Shown here one piece after another: positions 2,046 through 64,000 of a stretch of 64,000 nucleotides of DNA. Numbering within the stretch: position 1 is the stretch's first letter; every line of letters begins with the position of its first letter. The position numbers and the translations under genes were made by a program. The notes below the pieces were generated by a model. That model was not told where the DNA came from. It did not search any database and worked only from the letters and a program-made list of their open reading frames with translations. Source of the DNA: Octopus vulgaris (taxonomy: Eukaryota); the NCBI GenBank assembly GCA_951406725.2, contig OX597816.1, positions 74,214,001 to 74,278,000 on the forward strand, read 5' to 3'.

Positions 2046-2987
2046 TACTTTCCACTATAGGCACAGACCAGAAACTTTGGGCGAAGGGTCTAGTCGATTA
2101 TATCGACCACAGTGTTTCACTGGTACTTATTTCATCAACCCCGAAAGGATTAAAGGCAAAGTCGACCTCTGCGGAATTCGAACTCTGAACGAAAGGACGG
2201 ACGAAATGCCACAAAGCACTTCGCCCGGCGTGCTAACGATTCTGCCAGCTTGCTGCTTTTATATAACAACAACAACAGCAATAATAATAACAATTTCTGA
2301 CACCAAACTAGCAAGCGAAAGGCTCTAGTGAAGTCAACGTGAAGCTGACATCAGTGATATTAAAAAGTGAAACATAAAAGATTCTGTTTGACGCTGTGAC
2401 GTTTCTCACATTCTATCTTTTTCAAAATGATTTCTAACAAAGAACCATCTTGTCTCTTCGATATTTTTCCCATTTTCAAGTCGATAGGGTGGGATTCATG
2501 AGAGGTTTGGCGGTTATATATAAGTATTTTGTTTAGACACCAGTCAGCTTTGATTTAACAGACCCATGGTCAAAGTTATTCCAGCCACGACTATCCAGCC
2601 TTATTCTACTCAGGCGTATTGTTTCCAGGTCATATCATCCAAAGTGTCGTTCGTTTTTGCTTTTCTTTTGATTTTTAAAGTAGCAAGGAAGATTTAGCTT
2701 CTATTTCTGTCATGTCGAACGACTACGGAGAGGATCCCTGATTTGCTGTTAGCTAAGACTGTGCCAACAGCTGGTCCCAAGAGATCGATTGGAGGAAACA
2801 ATTTAGAATGAAGATTGTCAGATAGTCACAAATGCACGAATGGAGATAAGTAAGACAAGGAAGCACTTCTTCGTGAGGATGTTGAAATAAACGAAATAAA
2901 CGACTAAAGCCCTTGTATTAACAAATACAAGCGGTAATAGGCGCAATAAAATATCGATTTGTGACTCAATTACTAAGCTGCTAACAA

Positions 2988-3381
2988 GTATGTGTGTGTA
3001 TGTATATATGTGTGTATGTGTATGTATATGTGTGTATGTATGCGTATGTATGTACGCACGTATATGTGTACGTTTGTATGTATGTATGTATGTGTATGTA
3101 TGTAGATGCACGTATATATATAGGTGTGTGTATGTATATATGTGTATGTATGTACGTACCTATGTGTGTGTACGCATGTATGTATATATGTATGTATATG
3201 CACGTATGTGTATATGTATATATGTGTGTGTATGTATATATCTGTGTGTGCATGTACGAATGTGCGTGTATGTACGTACAAATGTGTGTACGCATGTATA
3301 TATGTGTGTATGTATATATATGCACTTACGTGTGTGTACGTATGTATGTATATATGAATGTACGCATGTATGTAGATGGAC

Positions 3382-3449
<68 letters not shown>

Positions 3450-3772
3450 GTCTGTGTATGTATATAAGTGTGTATGTATGTAGGTATGTATGTATGTACG
3501 TACGTATATGTGTATGTATGTATATATGTATGTACGCATGTATGTGTGTATGTATGTAGATGCACGTATATATATGTGTGTGTGTGTACGCATGTATGTA
3601 TATGCACGTATATATGTGCATGTATGTGTGTATGCATATCTGTGTGTATGTGTGCACGTACGTATGTGTGTGTACGTATGTGTATGTACGCATGTATGTA
3701 TATATGTATGTACGCATTTATATGCATGTATGTATGCGTGTGTATATATGTGTGTATATGTATGTGTGTGTA

Positions 3773-3804
<32 letters not shown>

Positions 3805-3806
3805 TG
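2988..3806. repeat. Degenerate (TG/TA)n microsatellite field
   Basis: About 800 bp of alternating purine-pyrimidine repeat. Confidence 0.95.
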
Positions 3807-3909
3807 ACACAAAATCCTCTGGTCTCAGTAAGTCTACAAACACCACGACTACCGTCTCTTCCTTGTCACAAGCCATTAAATAGAAAAGCTGTGGCATTCA
3901 TTATCGCCT

Positions 3910-3979
<70 letters not shown>

Positions 3980-4014
3980 TGGTGGTGTTGGTGGTGGTAG
4001 TAGTGGTGGTGGTG

Positions 4015-4070
<56 letters not shown>

Positions 4071-4150
4071 TATAGTAGTAACAGCAGCAGAAGCAGCAGT
4101 TGTAGTACCAACAGCAGCGGTAACGGTAGCAGTAGTAGTAGTTGTTGCTG
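3910..4150. repeat. (TAG)n/(TGG)n trinucleotide repeat
   Basis: Directly visible. Confidence 0.95.
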
Positions 4151-4263
4151 TTGGTTGCATCCCGGTCCACTTCCGATCAATAAGATCGATTCGACGGACG
4201 AGAGCGTCCCAGCCGTTATCCTGGCTTTGCCGGGGTTTTTTTCAGACTCGTTCTTCCTTTTCT

Positions 4264-4334
<71 letters not shown>

Positions 4335-4364
4335 GATGTTCCAGCCAAAAATTCTTTTCTACTG

Positions 4365-5095
4365 GAGGTACAAGGCCTCAAATTTGTGAGGAGGGGAGCA
4401 GTCGATGTAATCGACCCCAGTGTTTCACTGGTACTTAATTTATCAACACTGAAAGGATGAAAGGCAAAGTCGACATCGGCGGAATTTGAACTCAAAATAT
4501 AAAGACGGACGAAATACCTATTTCTTTAGGGGCTAAACACAGAGAGGACAGACAAAGGGATTAAGTCGATTATATCAACCCCAGTGCGTAACTGGTACTT
4601 ATTTAATCGACCCCGAAAGGATGAAAGGCAAAGTCGACCTCGGCGAAATTTGAACTCAGAACCTAGCAGCAGACAAAATACTTATTTCTTTACTTCCCAC
4701 AAGGGGCTAAACACAGAGGGGACAAACAAGGACAGACAAACGGATTAAGTCGATTATATCGACTCCAGTGCGAAACTGGTACTTAATTTATCGACCCCGA
4801 AAGGATGAAAGGCAAAGTCGACCTCGGCGGAATTTGAACTCAGAACGTAGCAGCAGACGAAATACCTATTTCTTTACTTCCCACAAGGGGCTAAACACAG
4901 AGGGGACAAACAAAGACAGACAAACGGATTAAGTTGATTATATCGACCCCAGTGCGAAACTGGTACTTAATTTATCGACCTCGAAAGGATGAAAGGCAAA
5001 GTCGACCTCGGCGGTATTTGAACTCAGAACGTAGCGTCAGACGAAATACGGCTACGCATTTCGCCCGACATGCTAACGATTCTGCCAGTTCACCG
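4365..5095 (-). mobile_element. Tandem array of four SINE segments (~180-bp period)
   Basis: gaaaggatgaaaggcaaagtcgac.tcggcg..atttgaactca repeated four times; single copies at 1180-1330, 2050-2250, 39240-39460 and 61130-61910. Confidence 0.85.
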
Positions 5096-5901: not shown

Positions 5902-6061
5902 ACAGATGCATATATATGTATATATATATATACACACATACGACCATCCATGTTTGTTTTCATTCGGTTTCCTTGTATGTCTCCACTTTGACCTACCAAC
6001 TTTGACCCTCCGCAAATCCCAAATTATATTTTGGTTCGCGGGAGCAACTGCCTTTCGAAGT

Positions 6062-6114
6062 TTCATATTGTCGTTCAATGCTCGAAATGAGGAGTAGATG
6101 GACAGCCGACAACT
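6062..6114 (+). ncRNA. Permuted hammerhead-like motif, 3'-truncated by a TA tract
   Basis: UUCA-UA-UUGUCG ... CUC-GAAA-UGAG ... CGACAA-CU, then (TA)n. Confidence 0.55.
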
Positions 6115-6289
6115 TATATATATATATATATATATGTACATATATGTATGCATATATGCATATGTGTATGTGTGTGTGTGTGTGTGAGTAGATAAACTTA
6201 CTTGGAAAAGGATGCGTGGCGTTCGATCAAATAATAATATACAAATATATGCATATATACATACATATATGTACATACTATTTATGTAT

Positions 6290-13331: not shown

Positions 13332-13483
<152 letters not shown>

Positions 13484-13504
13484 TAGCTACATACCTACAT
13501 ATAT

Positions 13505-14140
13505 ATGCATATACACATGCATATAAGGGTATAAGACGTCAAAACAAAAACATGGAAAACGAATTTTTTCGAACAACGAAAGAAACAAATAGAGAAACAA
13601 GACAGGCAACATAAAGAACATTCTCTTCATCAGTTGTCCCCTGTTTTATCTACTCCGCGTTTTGAACTTAGGGACAAGACGCGACTCCGTTAAAAGAGTC
13701 GTTCCTGCAAAGCAAATTTTAAAAATTGGAGATTTGCGGAGGGTTAAAGTGGTGAAAAAAAACCCAGAACAGTTAGAACAAAACAGTAAAAACAAACTGT
13801 AAGGGCTGCTAAGCCATAACGAGGTGAAGTGGTGAACACTGGAGAAACGAGCTTTGAGATGAGACAGGCAAAGCACGTCTTCGCTTTAGGAAGGAAGTGG
13901 AAGAAAGATAGATAGCCGTTGGTCACATGTGAGCAACAAGAGTCAAGGAAGAAGATGGAGGGAGAGAGGGGAACGGTGAAGGGGAGAGGAGAGAATTAGA
14001 GAAAGGGCGGGAGAGAAAAACAGAAAAGAAGAACAAGAGAGGTAGATAGAATAGAGGTAGGTTGTAGAGTGCGCATCGGAATTATTACGATAAAACTAAC
14101 TTGGAAATCGATGCGTGGCGTTCGATCTTATAATAATATA
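13505..14140 (-). mobile_element. ~640-bp non-coding element carrying a permuted hammerhead
   Basis: Same 5' motif (gaacgccacgcatc...ttccaagt.agtttat) and 3' motif (gacgtc.tgtaccc) as 49695-50335; flanked by TA tracts. Confidence 0.7.
13623..13683 (-). ncRNA. Permuted hammerhead-like motif (G12-to-A change in this copy)
   Basis: CGCG-UC-UUGUCCCU-AAG-UUC-AAAA-CGCG-GAGUAGAUAAAACA-GGGGACAA-CUGAUGA-A-GAG. Confidence 0.65.
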
Positions 14141-14169
14141 AATAATATATATATATATATGTACATACC

Positions 14170-14470
14170 TACATATATATGTATATATACATACATATTT
14201 GGGTACAGGACATCAAAAAACACGTGAACAAAATGAGAAACGAGAACATGAGTACCAAAAACATGGTAAGAAACAACTAGAGAAACGAGTCAAGCAACAT
14301 AAAGAAACATTCCCTTCATCAGTTATTTTGTTCTCACTGTCCTGTTTTTGTTACCACTTTAACCCTCCGCAAATCCCAAATTTGTTTAATTTGCTTTGCG
14401 GGAACGACTGTTTTAGCGAAGTCGCGTTTTGTCCCTACGTTCGAAACGCGGAGTAGATAAAACAGGGGAC
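14170..14470. mobile_element. Internally inverted copy of the permuted-hammerhead element
   Basis: 14325-14470(+) ends ...CAGGGGAC; 14324-14170(-) begins AACUGAUGAAGGG. Confidence 0.65.
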
Positions 14471-16325: not shown

Positions 16326-16400
16326 GTAGGTAGATAGATAGATAGATAAACTTACTTGGAAATGGATGCGTGGCGTTCAAGCATATAATAATGTAAATAA

Positions 16401-16491
<91 letters not shown>

Positions 16492-16694
16492 TATATATAT
16501 ATATGCATATATACATACATATATGTACATACTTACATATATATGTATATATATGTGCGTATATGGGTACAGGACGTCACAAAACATAAACAACATGAAA
16601 TACGAAAACATGGAATACGAACTGTTTTATGCGAGCAACGAAAGAAACAAATGGAAAAATGAGACAAGTAACATAAAGAACGACCATTCATCAG

Positions 16695-16761
<67 letters not shown>

Positions 16762-17150: not shown

Positions 17151-17599
17151 CACAAATGACTGGAAGAGGGTACAGTCGATTTAATTGGTCCTCAAACTAT
17201 ACTTTATAGATGACCACCGAAGACTAAAAAGAACAAGGTCGATTCTGTTAATATTTCAACACAAAACTTGAGATGCATCAGTATTTCGCCCTCTAATCCA
17301 CTGTTTCCGCCATTTTGCTTAGATGGCTAAAAACCTGTAGACAAGTATGAATAAAATTTCTGGAAGTGAAATAGTAGCAGTAACGTCATGCGAAACAGTT
17401 AACCTTAATAGCATAACGTAATGATAATTGTGCAGACGTGCATGGCTGACTGTACATGAAAGAATGGGAAATATTGTTGATATAACTTTAATGACTTTTA
17501 ACTAACGATGAACTTTACATTCGTGTGTGTGTGTAATATAAGTATATATTGTAGAACGTATATTTTATATATACATACATAAATACGTACGTAATCTGG

Positions 17600-19622
17600 T
17601 TGACTGACCAAGCAGTTCCCGTTGGGCTTCCCAAAAAGAAGAAACACAAGTCCTGGGTGATGACGAAGGTTAAACGAGAACTTCGACTCAGAGATATTGC
17701 TTGGGCTGAATTCAAAAATCTAGATTCGACTGCGGCTTTTGAGGTGTACAAAACTCAACGAGACCGAGCCGTGAAAATTGAAAAGGAAGAGCGCTTCAGA
17801 TATGAATACAGAATCGCGGCAAACGCCAGTCGCAATCCAAAAACCTTCTTTGTCCATGTCCAACGGAATTCCCGCTTGAACAACCAAATTGCAACGTTGG
17901 TAGACTCAACAGGCGTATCGATTGAGGACCCTTATCAACAGAGTCAATTATTTTCCGAGGCTTTTTCAACAATTGTCAAACAAGATGATGGTCGTGAACC
18001 CCCTCCAGTTGATAGATCGGTACCTCCAACGCCTAGATTGGTCATCACTCGGGACGAAGTCGAACGCGTTATTCAAGGCCTCGATGTCAACAAAGGTCAC
18101 GGCCCTGACGGCATACACCCACAGGTTATCAAAGCGTTGGCTCTGGTCATCTGCGAACCTTTAACACTTCTATTCAATATGTCATTGGCGACGGGTGTTA
18201 TACCTGCGGACTGGAGAACAGCGATAATCTGCCCTATTTTCAAGAAAGGGAGCCGCGAAGACCCGCTTAACTGCCGACCGGTTTCCCTTACTTCAATATT
18301 CAGCAAGATGTTCGAAACCATCCTTAAGAAAAGTATGTTGCTCCACCTCCAAAACACAGCCTCTATCTCTGATTCCCAACACGGCTTCGTGCCGAAGAGA
18401 TCATGCTTCACCAACTTACTGGTAATGGAAGAATTGGTGACGCGTATCCTGGATGATGGTGATGCTGTGGACATCGTTTTATTGGACTTTGCCAAAGCTT
18501 TTGACTCGGTTAACCACCGCCTATTACTTGTCAAGCTTCAAGCATATAGTTTCCATCCGGATATTGTACGATGGGTTGGTGCCTTCCTCTCAGATCGCTC
18601 CTTCCAAGTCCAAGTTCACTGTCCGACGTCTCCAGTGCGAGCAGTGGCGTGCCTCAGGGTTCAGTGCTCGGGCCCTTATTGTTTTTAGTCTTCATAAATG
18701 ACTTGCCCGACGACCTCACGCAACACACCCTTCTATTTGCCGATGATGTCAAATTGGTCGCTCCTCGCGGTGATATAGATGATCTTCGTCGATGCCTCCA
18801 CCAAGTTTGGAGATGGACTAACGAATGGGACCTGTGTCTGAACGTGTCAAAGTGCTGTCATCTGCCTGTTGGCTCTTCTCCTGCAACTCAACTTGATTTC
18901 GAGCCGGGTCGTCTGCTGCTGGAGAGGACCGACCAGGTAAAGGACCTGGGTATCTTGGTGGATTCTTCTTTTTCGCCTTCGGCCCAGTGCATCCATGCTG
19001 CCAACAAAGCACGCGGAGTTCTGTTTTTGATTCGACGGTCATTCGGAATGCTCACAGCAGCCATATTCCTACCGCTATATGTCACGCTGGTGAGACCCAT
19101 ATTGGAGTACGGGATTCAAGCCTCTTCTCCTTATCTCCTCAAAGACGTACATCATCTCGAAAGAGTCCAGAAGCTGGCTACCTGCACGGTTCTTGATCTC
19201 AAGCATTTGTCTTATGAAGAAAGGCTGAAGACGCTCGACCTTTATTCTCTAGAAAAACGACGACGCCGTGGTGATCTCATTCTTGCTCACAACATCATAA
19301 GCGGAAAGTGTAACCTCTCGAAAGAGCTGTTCTTCACTCCTGCTTCAGAGCGTCGGCTGCGGAGTCACTCCGAAAAGCTCTATCTGCGACGATTTCATCT
19401 CAATCGAAGGAGAGGGGCTTTCTCCGTCCGGGTTGCGGATCCGTGGAATAAGCTGCCGGACGAGATAGTGAAGATGCCGACGACCGCTCGGTTCAAAGTC
19501 TCTCTTGACCAGAAATGGCCTGAACTCTTTGCATGAACACCCTCCCTGTACATAACTCCATGCCCCCCTACATGGCCTTGCTTTTTGCTTTTTGAGCCAA
19601 AAAAATTAACTTAACTCAACTT
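17600..19622 (+). mobile_element. 5'-truncated CR1/L2-group LINE, ORF2 reverse transcriptase with one frameshift near 18620
   Basis: GPDGI, RPVSLTSIFSK, QHGF, DFAKAFDSV, GVPQGSVLGPLLFLVFINDL, LFADD, FSVRVADPWNKLP; short 3' UTR with (aactt)n-like tail. Confidence 0.95.
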
Positions 19623-28403: not shown

Positions 28404-28530
<127 letters not shown>

Positions 28531-28654
28531 GTTATATATATATATGTATATATATATATATGTATATATATATGTATATATATATATGTATATATATATA
28601 TGTATATATATATATGTATATATATATATGTATATATATATATGTATATATATA

Positions 28655-29717
<1,063 letters not shown>

Positions 29718-29901
29718 TATATAATTAGGGCTTAGTAAAATAAATTACTTTGCCACATACTGAACCGTATTTTAGTAATTTATTTTACTAAGCCCTAATT
29801 ATATAATGTAATATTTTGAATTCGCCTTAAATGGTCCTTTTACATACTGAACACTACTTGGTGAAATTGATTAATAACTAATTAATTTTACCCTCAATTG
29901 T

Positions 29902-29957
<56 letters not shown>

Positions 29958-30050
29958 ACAATTGAGGGTAAAATTAATTAGTTATTAATCAATTTCACCA
30001 AGTAGTGTTCAGTATGTAAAAGGACCATTTAAGGCGAATTCAAAATATTA
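29718..30050. repeat. AT-rich fold-back element plus inverted duplication across a TA tract
   Basis: gggcttagtaaaataaattact / agtaatttattttactaagccc; 29809-29905 is mirrored at 29954-30050; same family at 49419-49670. Confidence 0.85.
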
Positions 30051-48265: not shown

Positions 48266-48641
48266 GACAGGCCTCTTTCAGTTTCCGTTTACCAAATCCA
48301 CTTATAAGACTTTGGTCGGCCCGAGAAGACACTTGCCCAAGGTGCCACGCTGTGGGACTGAACCCGGAACCATGTGCTTGGTAAGCAAGCTACTTACCAC
48401 ACAGCCACCCTTCCGCATATATATCATGTGCTTGGTAAGCAAGCTACTTACCACACAGCCACCCTTCCGCATATATATATATATATATATATGCGGAAGG
48501 GTGGCTGTGTGGTAAGTAGCTTGCTTACCAAGCACATGGTTCCGGGTTCAGTCCCACAGCGTGGCACCTTGGGCAAGTGTCTTCTCGGGCCGACCAAAGT
48601 CTTATAAGTGGATTTGGTAAACGGAAACTGAAAGAGGCCTG

Positions 48642-49694: not shown

Positions 49695-49856
49695 CTAGTA
49701 TTTATTACTGAACTGAACGACATCCATTTCCAAGTAAGTTTATTTTCGCCTTTTTGATGCGACTCTCTTCATATACTGTTTTCTTCCTTCATCCTTCTCT
49801 AATTCCTATTTCTCCCCCTTCCTCATTCACCGTTTTCTATTTGTCTGTCTGTCTCC

Positions 49857-49898
<42 letters not shown>

Positions 49899-50335
49899 GC
49901 TCACACATGACCATCGTTCATCTTTCTTTTCCTACACGGACGTTCAAAGGACTGGACGTTTTTTCCCCTCTCTCTTCTCTCTTTTCTCTTTTCAAAGAAA
50001 ATATTTCTCCCAGTGTTCACTATTTTCCTCTCGTCTTGGTCTAACGATCGTCCATGTTTATTTTCGTTCGGTTTCCTTGTATGTCTCCATTTTCATGTTT
50101 TTGTTCCCAACTTTGAACCTCCATAAATCCTAAATTTTATTTTAGAATTTATGGGAGCAACTGTCTTTGAAGACTCATATTGTCTTTGAATGCTCGAAAT
50201 GAGGAGTAGATAGACAGCCGATAACTGATGAGGCGTGCTTTCTTTGTGCTTGTCCCGTTTTCCAGTTTTTTCGCATTGTTTATATATTTCCAACCGTTTG
50301 AACAGTTGGTGACGTCCTGTACCTATATATGCATA
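49695..50335 (+). mobile_element. ~640-bp non-coding element carrying a permuted hammerhead (50174-50236)
   Basis: CUCA-UA-UUGUC...AUGCUC-GAAA-UGAG-GAGUAG...GAUAA-CUGAUGA-GGCGU; same termini as 13505-14140. Confidence 0.7.
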
Positions 50336-53261: not shown

Positions 53262-56035
53262 CAGGCCCGTAGCTACGGGGTGGGGGGCTATGGGGTGTTC
53301 GGCACCCCCAGTTAGAATCTCAGCCCCTCCACCCCAGTATGAGAATTTGTTTTATCCACTTTTGAAAGAAAAAGAAAACAAAAACAAAAGAAATGACAGT
53401 TACTGATTAAGAAATTGGGAGAATTGTGCAATAAGTAATAAAAAAAAAGAAAAATTAAATATGTGAAGTTTCAAATTCAAAACCACTGAACCTGCCAAAT
53501 ATTATGAAGAGATTATCTCCCTTGTAAATTCTTGATCTGCCATGCAAGCAATATCTGAAGTCGCTAAAGATGCAATAAATTGAATTTCTTTTGATTTAGT
53601 AGTTAGTGCTATGAAAATATGGATAGATTAGAGCTGTTTGTTGTAGCTGTAATTGTTGTCGCAGAATTGGCTGCTGACCCGGTCATCAACTGTGGGTTGA
53701 ATTTAAGGACTGGCTGACGCTGGGTCAGTTGTTGTGGTGGTGGTGATGCTCGTGATGGCGACGTCAGTGCTGGTGATTGTCCTTGTTGCTGTTGAAAAGT
53801 AGGTGAAGAATTGTGGCCGTAGTTAGAGATTTATGGTAGTAAACGCATCACTACACACACATATATATATATATAATAGTGTAATGAATAAAATATATGC
53901 ATACATACATACATATATGTACGTACCTACATCTAATATACATGCATATATAAATATATATACGTGAGTACAGGACACCACAAATAGACGTAGAACTCAA
54001 CGAGAAACGAAAACGTAAAAACAAGCATGGAACGGACCATTTTTTTACAACGAAAAAACAGAGTACGAGACAAACTACACAAGGAAAAAACCCCTTCATC
54101 AGCTGTCCCTAGTTCAACTCCAGCGTGTTTCGAAGGTGAGGACAGAACACGACTCGTCGAACTAACCCTTCCTGCGAAAGAATTAAATAAAATTACTTCG
54201 CAGAGGGGTAAAAACAAGGAAAGAAAAAAATGTGACACAAACAGGACGTAAAAACGATACAAATAAAATTACAAAATAAAATACAAAATAAAAATACAAT
54301 TACAAAAAATACAAAAACAGAAATAAAAACAAACAAGAAAACAAACGAAGAGGGCCTTTTTTTGGCCTAGACGAGGAAGATTCTAAGAGCGTAAGAAAAA
54401 CCGTGTGTTTACAGTTAGGAGGCCGCAGGCAAAAGGAAGTAGTCAGCCGGCTGTGAGAGAGATGGGGAGGAGTGAGTGAGAGAGAGAGAGAGGAAGACAA
54501 GTGGCTGAGAGAGAGATGAGGAGGAGTGGGAGAGAGAGAGATAGGGAAAGAAGGGAAGGTCAGAGACGGACATTAAAAAGTCTAGTCAGAGAAGATTATT
54601 TATTCGCGAAAAAGGAGAGAAAATTTTTGAAATTTCCCAAAATATACTACATTCAGGAAGTATTTTACAAGTGAGAACTTTCACTGAATAATTTTTCTTA
54701 CACTTTGAACAAAGTTAATACTGAAATTATTTTGTGTTTAACTAAAAAACCATAACTTTGAAGAAATTGAAAAAAAAATTGCTTGAACCGAAATCTCTTT
54801 CGAGTTTAATTTTAAAATACATAAATTTTAAGAAATTGTTACTCAATTAATTATTGCGAATATCGGTGCCCAAAAATAATGAATCACAACCGAAAAAGAG
54901 AACTGAAGCAATCATTGCTGAATTTCCTATCAGATTCATCTAATAATGCTAAGCAGAAGAGAATTGCAAACGAAGTTTCGCAGCTCAAGGGAGGTCTTGC
55001 AAAGTCTTTGACACCCTCGTTGGACGCTCTCGGACAGGTCGACTGCCAAACCAGTGCAGCCAGTTCTAGCAAAGTTTGATACAAAAATTTATGGAAATCA
55101 GAGACGTGACTTCTCATCAAGCAGGTATACTAATCGTTTATGGTTAGAGTATTCTCTTTCAAAGAAAGCCTTGTTTTGTTTTGCTTGTCGGCAATTAAAT
55201 ACTTCTGCTCAAGCTGATACTTGTTTTAGTAAAAATGGATATTCTAATTGGCATTATGCAAAAGAAAAAAAAAACAAAGGTTTAAATAAGCACACAAACT
55301 CTGCATCCCATATCTAAGCTATGTTGACATGGAAGGAACGCCAACAATGTTTATCCATAACATCCATGTCTTCAATCTTGCAAAATGATCAGTTGAGCAA
55401 AAATCGTTATTATATCAGTTCCATTGTTGATATTGTTCATTTAATTTGTGCAAACGAATTGCCTTTTCGAGGAAACGAAAATGAAGCTTTTCGGGAACTT
55501 TATTCGGAAGATGATACGTAACCTTGTGGTCTTTATTTGAAATTATTCCAGTACACATTAGAGAAAGACTCAAAGCTAATGGAATGTTACAGCATGATTC
55601 CAAAAAATGCGACCTACACCTCCGCAGCAATGCAAAACGAAATCATCGAATTGTTGATAAGACACACTGTCAGCCTCGTGCTCGATGTTTATTTGAAATT
55701 ATATAAAAATAATGTTTAAAGATTTGGCTGTTATCTCTAGCATGTAGAATGTGCTTGTTGAAAATAATTTTTTTAATATTGGAGTCGATACATTCGACTA
55801 AAAATTCTTTGAGGTGATGCCCCAGCATGGCCTCAGTTTAATGTTTGCAACAAGTAAAATGAAAATAAAAACGAAATATATCAGAAGTTTTGCCCAGGAT
55901 AGGCGTCAAGAAATGTGAAAAAATAAACGGAAAAAATAACCGAAAAATATAAGCATGGGGCTTTTGTCCACTTTCACACTTTTGTCCGTACCCCTGTTCA
56001 GCACCCCCAGTTGCAATCGGCTGGCTACGTGGCTG
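53262..56035 (+). mobile_element. Degenerate hAT transposon with nested insertions; transposase relic ~55050-55700 (TTF zinc finger/DUF4371-like)
   Basis: TIRs caggcccgtagc / gctacgtggctg; flanks gcatgaat / gtatgaag; WLEYSLSKKALFCFAC, ELPFRG, NATYTSAAMQNEII. Confidence 0.75.
54091..54151 (-). ncRNA. Permuted hammerhead-like motif with all core nucleotides intact
   Basis: CGUG-UU-CUGUCCU-CAC-CUUC-GAAA-CACG-CUGGAGUUGAACUA-GGGACAG-CUGAUGA-A-GGGG. Confidence 0.7.
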
Positions 56036-63716: not shown

Positions 63717-64000
63717 TTAGTATTCCTGGCCCAGGGTGTTTAAACTTGGTCTAAATTTTTTTATGAAATATAGTTCTTTATTTTGGCGTTGTGTGAAGGT
63801 TGCGTTGTCACTGAATTTATAGAGCGGGTTAGTTGTAAATTTCGGATTTACATTTCCAGCACATCTATCTATGTGTCCGCTGACCGGTATTTTGCGGTAA
63901 TCAGGGTTTCTAATTTGTGATTTATGCACCGCCATCCTGTTACGTAAGCTATTTTTTGTATGGCCTATATACTGCCTATTGCAGCCTGCGCATGTTATGA
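63717..64000 (-). CDS. Penelope-like element GIY-YIG endonuclease C-terminus (open to the window edge)
   Basis: ITCAGCNRQYIGHTKNSLRNRMAVHKSQI...VSGHIDRC...RQNKELYFIKKFRPSLN. Confidence 0.85.
   Translation of the reverse strand, partial: ITCAGCNRQYIGHTKNSLRNRMAVHKSQIRNPDYRKIPVSGHIDRCAGNVNPKFTTNPLYKFSDNATFTQRQNKELYFIKKFRPSLNTLGQEY

What the first reader, a model, noticed from the sequence alone, without database searches (positions are those of the whole stretch)
13505..14140. ~640-nt non-autonomous element family that hosts the permuted hammerhead
Seen: 13505-14140(-) and 49695-50335(+) share a layout: 5' motif gaacgccacgcatc...ttccaagtaagtttat, a pyrimidine-rich tract, a ctttaaccctccgcaaatc block, the permuted ribozyme, a U-rich tract, and a 3' end gacgtc.tgtaccc next to TA repeats. 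Partial copies occur at 5940-6245, 14170-14470, 16345-16696 and 53960-54600. There is no ORF, no Pol III box and no TIR. Inference: a Penelope-dependent, microsatellite-targeting RNA parasite; at least six diverged copies in 64 kb implies a high genomic copy number.
Basis: partly seen in the sequence, partly recalled or inferred. Interest (0 to 1): 0.7.

Follow-up and report, generated by a model that had tools for sequence, protein, structure and literature searches.

The report
Gene-less retroelement with rewired hammerhead ribozyme
A roughly 700-letter non-coding repeat with thousands of copies in this animal genome is built like a Penelope-type jumping gene without its gene and carries a likely self-cutting hammerhead RNA with its strands out of order and its core opened, the same wiring seen at the tail of Naiad retroelements, whose enzyme likely copied it.

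Summary
The family is real: three subfamilies, 2,685-4,546 first-look candidates each in a 2.8-Gb genome, roughly 38,000 segments extrapolated from 7 hits. The '3' end' is followed by a conserved TA-like linker that belongs to the unit, and the '5' motif' is the Penelope-type tail, found after the linker and often ending a copy. The unit closes on itself (644-882 nt) and inserts as 5'-truncated, partial-tandem or 5'-inverted copies next to (TA)n, as Penelope-like elements (PLEs) do. It carries a hammerhead-like fold in S-G-C strand order, but stem II is completed by an extra upstream strand, so it is not plain type SGC; covariation spans four families. 5' ends pile up just after the predicted cut (19 versus 1). 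The same fold sits 3' of decayed Naiad reverse transcriptase; intact Neptune-like elements share nothing with it. The focal copy has lost G12. Cleavage, expression, circles and the current mobiliser are untested. The scan reported this ribozyme before, in this and other genomes.

The parts
14326..14470 (+). inverted 5' piece of the focal insertion (unit positions -103 to +42 from the predicted cut); holds the S and G blocks but stops before CUGAUGA
   Evidence: (L001)
14201..14324 (-). upstream direct repeat (pseudo-LTR-like): starts about +40 at CUGAUGA, U-rich tract, gacgtc.tgtaccc motif
14128..14200 (-). conserved TA-like linker; part of the unit, not target DNA
14090..14127 (-).
13885..14065 (-). 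pyrimidine-rich body, non-coding
13740..13743 (-). 5' strand of helix IV (pairs with the nucleotides after A9)
13705..13739 (-). hairpin P, inserted between helix IV and stem II; covaries between subfamilies
13700..13704 (-). extra upstream strand that supplies 10.1-10.5 of stem II
13670..13698 (-). helix IIIb 5' strand, GA-rich internal loop, stem III strand, GUC triplet (H17 = 13678, predicted cut between 13678 and 13677), stem I 5' strand
13641..13668 (-). stem II 11.x strand, GAAA block (reads AAAA in this copy), stem III and IIIb 3' strands
13623..13640 (-). stem I 3' strand, CUGAUGA (13633-13627), helix IV 3' strand
13400..13620 (-). U-rich tract, gacgtc motif and linker running into (TA)n; the exact 3' end cannot be resolved in the microsatellite
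49695..50335 (+). subfamily B copy (H17 at 50179, CUGAUGA at 50225)
53890..54554 (-). subfamily C copy with intact core (H17 at 54146, CUGAUGA at 54102)
16345..16696 (-). short copy starting at CUGAUGA and ending after the tail
5940..6241 (.). B-like piece 5940-6117(+) stopping at CUGAUGA, facing an inverted linker-tail end 6190-6241(-)

Best explanation
This is a high-copy non-coding repeat whose unit closes on itself and whose copies show Penelope-type truncations, partial tandems, inversions and tails; it is likely a non-autonomous retroelement whose RNA is likely trimmed by a predicted core-opened, non-circularly permuted hammerhead and was likely copied into (TA)n by a Naiad-type enzyme. 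Shown: unit order tail > pyrimidine body > ribozyme > U-rich tract > TA-like linker > tail; two preferred 3' ends (linker end, tail end); compensatory changes in stems I, II, III, IIIb and hairpin P; a step in 5' ends at the predicted cut; the same fold 3' of Naiad reverse transcriptase (RT). Inferred: read-through transcription of a partial tandem; cleavage after the NUH triplet sets the RNA 5' end. The fully cut product (cut to tail, about 290 nt) gives the many short copies. Partly uncut or circularised RNA gives the 1-1.5-unit copies. A PLE GIY-YIG/RT protein nicks (TA)n and primes at the linker or tail end. Which autonomous family moved the youngest subfamily is open.
For: Copy number. 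Closed unit and tail. PLE hallmarks as listed in PMC8557442 section 6: upstream direct repeats reaching the ribozyme or 3' part in 4 of 30 A and 3 of 30 C loci; 5' inversions in 4 of 30 A and 4 of 30 C loci; TA-rich DNA after 26 of 30 C ends. No same-strand PLE protein hit upstream in 0 of 90 loci; the 3 loci with hits are antisense. Fold: all core positions are the commonest letter in four families, and a stems-I/III descriptor gave 45 of 120 copies against 0 hits in 3.84 Mb of shuffles. The stem II partner is upstream: Watson-Crick fraction 0.82-0.93 versus 0.19-0.40 for the downstream strand, best of 90 offsets in all four families, with covariation inside subfamily A (Fisher p=0.0075). Helices P, II and IV: 91% of cells paired, 0 of 500 shuffles reach this (12 copies). 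5' starts: 19 (17 loci) at +1 to +25 versus 1 at -25 to 0 (binomial p=2e-5). Naiad link: 7 of 20 long Naiad 3' loci have same-strand Naiad RT, and 5 of these keep the ribozyme block downstream.
Against: There is no cleavage or expression data; the runs laid were contigs only. Only 4 of 30 A and 7 of 30 B copies pass the descriptor, and the focal copy lacks G12. Helix IV shows no two-sided change among A-C and is 3 bp plus wobbles in Naiad; hairpin P did not pair in Naiad at the register tried. Stem I discriminates families weakly (cross-family pairing 48-97%). The Naiad of this genome is decayed (longest frame among Naiad-like hits 292 aa; copies 88% alike), whereas subfamily C is 96% alike. 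BLAST found no sequence shared between the element and the Naiad 3' end beyond the fold and a short CATCC(A/T)TTT-like word near the end (seen by eye). Nested folding does not recover the fold (z from -2.5 to +0.85); this is expected for pseudoknots but gives no support.
Confidence: 0.75

Rival explanations
1. The same non-autonomous element, but mobilised, at least lately, by the young Neptune-like PLEs of this genome; the Naiad-type ribozyme would be an inherited passenger.
For: At least two Neptune-like families have intact 775-781 aa frames; one has copies 99% alike. They also end in (TA)n with optional tails. Subfamily C (96%) is more homogeneous than the Naiad remnants (88%).
Against: No sequence similarity or S-G-C core was found at their 3' ends. 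One family carries a canonical type I-like hammerhead instead.
Confidence: 0.3
2. The copies are truncated 3' ends or pseudo-LTRs of an autonomous PLE not yet found, rather than an independent element.
For: 5' truncation is the rule, and Naiad copies here are mostly bare 3' ends. The genome searches score only the best 40-150 candidates.
Against: Full units run upstream into their own linker and 3' part. 0 of 90 loci have a same-strand PLE frame upstream, against 7 of 20 for the Naiad 3' end (those 20 were chosen for reaching further upstream).
Confidence: 0.1
3. The fold is a hammerhead-derived, non-catalytic RNA structure (an RT-binding or template-switch signal), and 5' ends pile up because RT stalls in it.
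For: The core is broken between A9 and G10.1, which PMC10085705 assumed does not occur. Many starts lie at +13 to +25, inside the knot. Copies with sequence on both sides of the site exist, so cutting is incomplete at best.
Against: Every catalytic position and the NUH rule are kept across four otherwise diverged families (H17 = C, A, U, A). Starts end sharply at +1 to +3, with none in -24 to 0 (A) or -62 to +1 (C).
Confidence: 0.12
4. It is a plain type-SGC hammerhead, with a short G-U-rich stem II formed by the nucleotides after CUGAUGA.
For: 2-4 pairs, mostly G-U, can form after one extra nucleotide.
Against: Watson-Crick fraction 0.19-0.40 with no convincing covariation, against 0.82-0.93 with covariation for the upstream strand.
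Confidence: 0.08

Closest known systems
Non-LTR retrozymes of animals (PMC7229834, passages seen; bioRxiv 10.64898/2026.07.22.740005, parts 1-3 of 5 read)
   Same: Non-coding, ribozyme-bearing unit that closes head to tail, at high copy number; proposed to be non-autonomous PLE derivatives.
   Different: Those carry type I hammerheads in 150-450 bp tandem repeats. Here the unit is 644-882 nt, mostly inserted as 0.3-1.5 units with inversions and tails, and the ribozyme is non-circularly permuted, so type I descriptors miss it.
Naiad PLEs and non-autonomous PLEs such as MRC1 (PMC8557442; passages, section 6 and supplement look-ups)
   Same: 5' truncation, partial tandems, 5' inversion, 30-40 bp tail, (TA)n bias. 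The octopus Naiad 3' end carries the same fold.
   Different: No ORF. No alignable sequence shared with the Naiad beyond the fold. The paper reports Naiads as lacking canonical hammerheads and flags only 'half cores'.
Type-SGC hammerhead ribozymes, HRIMA-1 and variants (PMC10085705; parts 2-5 of 8 read, supplement not read)
   Same: S, G, C block order; same core nucleotides; short link from stem I to stem II.
   Different: Block C is broken: stem II uses an extra upstream strand, with helix IV and hairpin P between A9 and G10.1. Stem III is extended through a GA-rich loop. It lies in an animal genome, whereas the paper found SGC forms in no genome of a known organism.

Membership tests
non-autonomous PLE | no coding capacity | tested here: met
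non-autonomous PLE | 5' truncation and partial tandems (pseudo-LTR) | tested here: met
non-autonomous PLE | inverted truncated copy at the 5' side | tested here: met
   4 of 30 A and 4 of 30 C loci; the raw C count of 15 is inflated by the palindromic TA linker
non-autonomous PLE | optional 30-40 bp tail and (TA)n target | tested here: met
   15 of 30 C copies end after the tail and 15 at the linker end; 26 of 30 are followed by TA-rich DNA. The A tail is about 38 nt, the C tail about 60 nt.
non-autonomous PLE | 3' sequence shared with an autonomous partner | tested here: inconclusive
   none with Neptune-like families; only the fold and a short word with Naiad
non-LTR retrozyme | head-to-tail units each with a ribozyme | tested here: met
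   two full ribozyme regions in L021 and L074; unit spacings; long arrays not seen
non-LTR retrozyme | type I hammerhead | tested here: not met
   S-G-C order with opened core; no Rfam match at gathering score
non-LTR retrozyme | expressed as linear and circular RNA | not testable with these tools
   only contigs of runs guessed to be RNA were on offer
type-SGC hammerhead | S-G-C block order with conserved core and NUH | tested here: met
type-SGC hammerhead | CUGAnGA directly followed by its stem II strand (unbroken block C) | tested here: not met
type-SGC hammerhead | helix joining the far ends of stems I and II | tested here: inconclusive
   no common helix of that kind seen by eye; the strand concerned pairs in IIIb instead
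type-SGC hammerhead | site-specific self-cleavage | not testable with these tools
   indirect only: step in 5' ends
tRNA-derived SINE | tRNA head or Pol III A+B boxes | tested here: not met
   (box patterns recalled)

The most novel reading that the evidence does not exclude
A viroid-like circular-RNA retroelement class that parasitises Naiad proteins and is processed by a hammerhead architecture outside the published six-permutation scheme (four strands, core opened by a junction). Non-circularly permuted hammerheads (this form in cephalopods, plain CSG in nematodes) are the ribozymes that Naiad elements were reported to lack.
Probability: 0.5. Interest if true: 0.85.

Novelty: new variant of a known kind. 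Interest (0 to 1): 0.7.

Why it matters
It would extend retrozymes to a ribozyme form that standard hammerhead descriptors and Rfam miss, so a large class of animal repeats may be uncounted. It offers a direct bench test of two published statements: that Naiads lack hammerheads, and that the CUGAnGA-stem II block cannot be interrupted. The step in 5' ends at the cut site bears on the open question of what hammerheads do in the PLE life cycle.

Tried and rejected
Rfam gave only TA-driven microRNA false matches among the 150 of 197 rows shown for the window and none at gathering score on four loci.

Circularly permuted types II and III were rejected by eye, because no hairpin stem I or adjoining GAAA fits. 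Plain SGC was my first reading and was dropped. Helix IIIb for Naiad was mis-registered (49% paired) and redone. Five loci with indels were dropped (L013, L029, L038, L039, L059); 22 of 29 Naiad loci could be anchored. L062 was left out of the unit lengths because its second motif belongs to another copy. MAFFT put subfamily B two columns off in the S block, so one search covers only helices IV, P and II on 12 of 90 copies.

Neptune-like families as sequence donors were rejected. RNA evidence: no RNA holder listed; two read lay-ups were contigs only and could show neither ends nor circles. One search queried the wrong flank and gave nothing usable. Repbase and Dfam could not be searched, so the repeat may already be catalogued under a name.

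Full report
Observation. The two named copies align end to end (E 1e-23), and the four partial copies are recovered. The genome has 2.8 Gb in 227 contigs. I infer an octopus from its size and from the by-eye match of one repeat end to the published Naiad_Obim and Naiad_Ovul ends. Searches with the three window subfamilies gave 4,546 (A), 3,361 (B) and 2,685 (C) first-look candidates, of which 40 each were scored. In 81 loci fetched for other reasons (511,543 bases) there were 7 segments. That extrapolates to about 38,000 genome-wide, with a wide range on 7 counts (roughly 15,000-79,000, my arithmetic); the window is about 8 times denser. Median identity among the best hits is 89% (A), 87% (B) and 96% (C); best-hit selection biases these upward.

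The unit. The gacgtc.tgtaccc motif is followed by a conserved TA-like linker word in 88 of 133 occurrences, and by the '5' motif' within 330 nt in 39. Of 92 fuzzy matches to the '5' motif' (some are chance), 53 lie downstream of the 3' motif; 37 of those stop there and 16 continue into the body. In subfamily C, 15 of 30 copies end after this motif and 15 at the linker end, and 26 of 30 are followed by TA-rich DNA. This fits the optional 30-40 bp tail described for PLEs (PMC8557442 section 6). Spacings between repeated motifs give units of 674-775 nt (A, 6 loci), 644-705 (B, 2) and 810-882 (C, 3) (L062 left out). Upstream direct repeats reaching the ribozyme or 3' part occur in 4 of 30 A and 3 of 30 C loci, and true 5' inversions in 4 of 30 each. 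The focal insertion spans about 13400-14470: an inverted piece (-103 to +42 from the predicted cut), a direct repeat from +40, the linker, the tail, then one full unit. There is no ORF, tRNA head or A+B box pair.

The ribozyme. Along the chain come the cleavage block, then GAAA, then CUGAUGA, the order called SGC in PMC10085705 (parts 2-5 of 8 read). All core positions are the commonest letter in A, B, C and the Naiad end; H17 is C, A, U and A respectively. Stem III pairs 87-97% within families and 38-95% across them; stem I pairs 90-97% within and 48-97% across (114 of 119 loci). A descriptor matched 4, 7, 21 and 13 of 30 copies and nothing in 3.84 Mb of shuffled window. I first read it as plain SGC. 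Earlier scan notes suggested an opened core, which I then tested. The five nucleotides before GAAA pair best, of 90 offsets, with a strand 21-26 nt upstream of H17 in all four families (Watson-Crick fraction 0.82-0.93 versus 0.19-0.40 for the strand after CUGAUGA). One pair covaries inside subfamily A (counts 8, 1, 3, 9; p=0.0075). The nucleotides after A9 pair instead with a strand further upstream (helix IV, 4-6 bp in A-C), with a 7-bp covarying hairpin P between. Stem III continues through a GA-rich loop into helix IIIb. In the Naiad the loop has a kink-turn pattern (recalled consensus: 3-nt bulge, then GA/GA) in 22 of 22 anchored copies; it is less regular in A-C. Against: helix IV has no two-sided change in A-C, hairpin P did not pair in the Naiad at the register tried, and nested folding gives no support. 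The focal copy has A at G12; the copy at 54146(-) is intact.

A genomic trace of cutting. Loci were picked by sequence downstream of the ribozyme only. Of 68 segments, 19 (17 loci) start at +1 to +25 from the predicted cut and 1 at -25 to 0; none start in -24 to 0 (A) or -62 to +1 (C). Six more start at +36 to +58 and 42 further upstream (p=2e-5 by segments). BLAST ends are imprecise by a few bases, and RT stalling could contribute, but the sharp upstream edge fits a template that ends at the cut.

The partner. A GIY-YIG search found abundant C-terminal-endonuclease, Neptune-like PLEs (my classification from the cysteine linker and domain order) with intact 781-aa frames, and a second family of 775 aa. 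Neither shares sequence or an S-G-C core with the element. A different repeat end with the same fold (1,134 candidates) lies downstream of same-strand RT remnants in 7 of 20 long loci, 5 of which keep the CUGAUGA block. It matches by eye the published octopus Naiad ends, one of which the authors flagged 'HHR_half_core'. This Naiad is decayed (longest frame 292 aa among Naiad-like hits; 150 of 2,566 candidates scored; copies 88% alike). That suits A and B but leaves the mobiliser of C open. None of 90 element loci has a same-strand PLE frame upstream. I read 30 Naiad consensus 3' ends by eye in the supplement (about 300 nt each). Two octopus ends show this fold, one squid end shows part of it, six nematode ends show plain type CSG with compensatory changes, and 21 showed nothing I could fit. 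This was not computed.

Mechanism. Shown: anatomy, covariation, end distributions and the Naiad link. Inferred: a read-through RNA is cut after the NUH triplet; fully cut RNA yields short copies; uncut or circularised RNA yields copies with sequence on both sides of the site; a PLE protein primes on nicked (TA)n at the linker or tail end. Expression, cleavage and circles are untested.

Comparison and novelty. It works like a non-LTR retrozyme (PMC7229834, passages; bioRxiv 2026.07.22.740005, parts 1-3 of 5) but fails the type I test. It meets the structural tests for a non-autonomous PLE, with the partner unresolved. It fails the unbroken-block-C test for type SGC. Searches found no paper describing this element or this wiring. 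Subscription papers, Repbase, Dfam, the supplement of PMC10085705 (not read) and the preprint's supplements (closed) may bear on that. The scan reported the ribozyme before in this and other genomes, and at 54091-54151 of this window. What this report adds is the corrected element boundaries, the tail, the closed unit and the age mismatch with the Naiad.

Noticed in passing
window 63720-63998 (-): 3' end of a young Neptune-like PLE frame (93 aa, 100% identical to an intact 781-aa copy); the element continues beyond the window (L131).
   Followed up: partly
L255:3280, L132:5301, L135:5716: Canonical type I-like minimal hammerhead in the 3' repeat of the 775-aa Neptune-like family; two of the three copies read CCGAAGA instead of CUGAAGA.
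   Followed up: no
L124:1268-2704, L251:5284-6645(-): Two Neptune-like families have a 450-480 aa upstream frame overlapping the RT frame, suggesting a two-ORF or frameshift layout.
   Followed up: no
PMC8557442 supplement: Six nematode Naiad 3' ends fit type-CSG hammerheads by eye, a permutation known from only two metagenomic sequences in PMC10085705.
   Followed up: partly
PMC8557442 supplement: Bivalve and hemichordate Naiad 3' ends share other conserved motifs that may be further structured RNAs.
   Followed up: no
window 28482-30050 and 48433-48530: Long inverted repeats centred on (TA)n (568 bp arms at 88%; near-perfect shorter arms), typical of foldback insertions.
   Followed up: no
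window 17555-19533 (+): Two overlapping frames of 377 and 328 aa with RT-like motifs (recalled), probably a broken LINE.
   Followed up: no
Subfamily A sequence was laid in contigs of four coded organisms, so the family likely predates their split.
   Followed up: no
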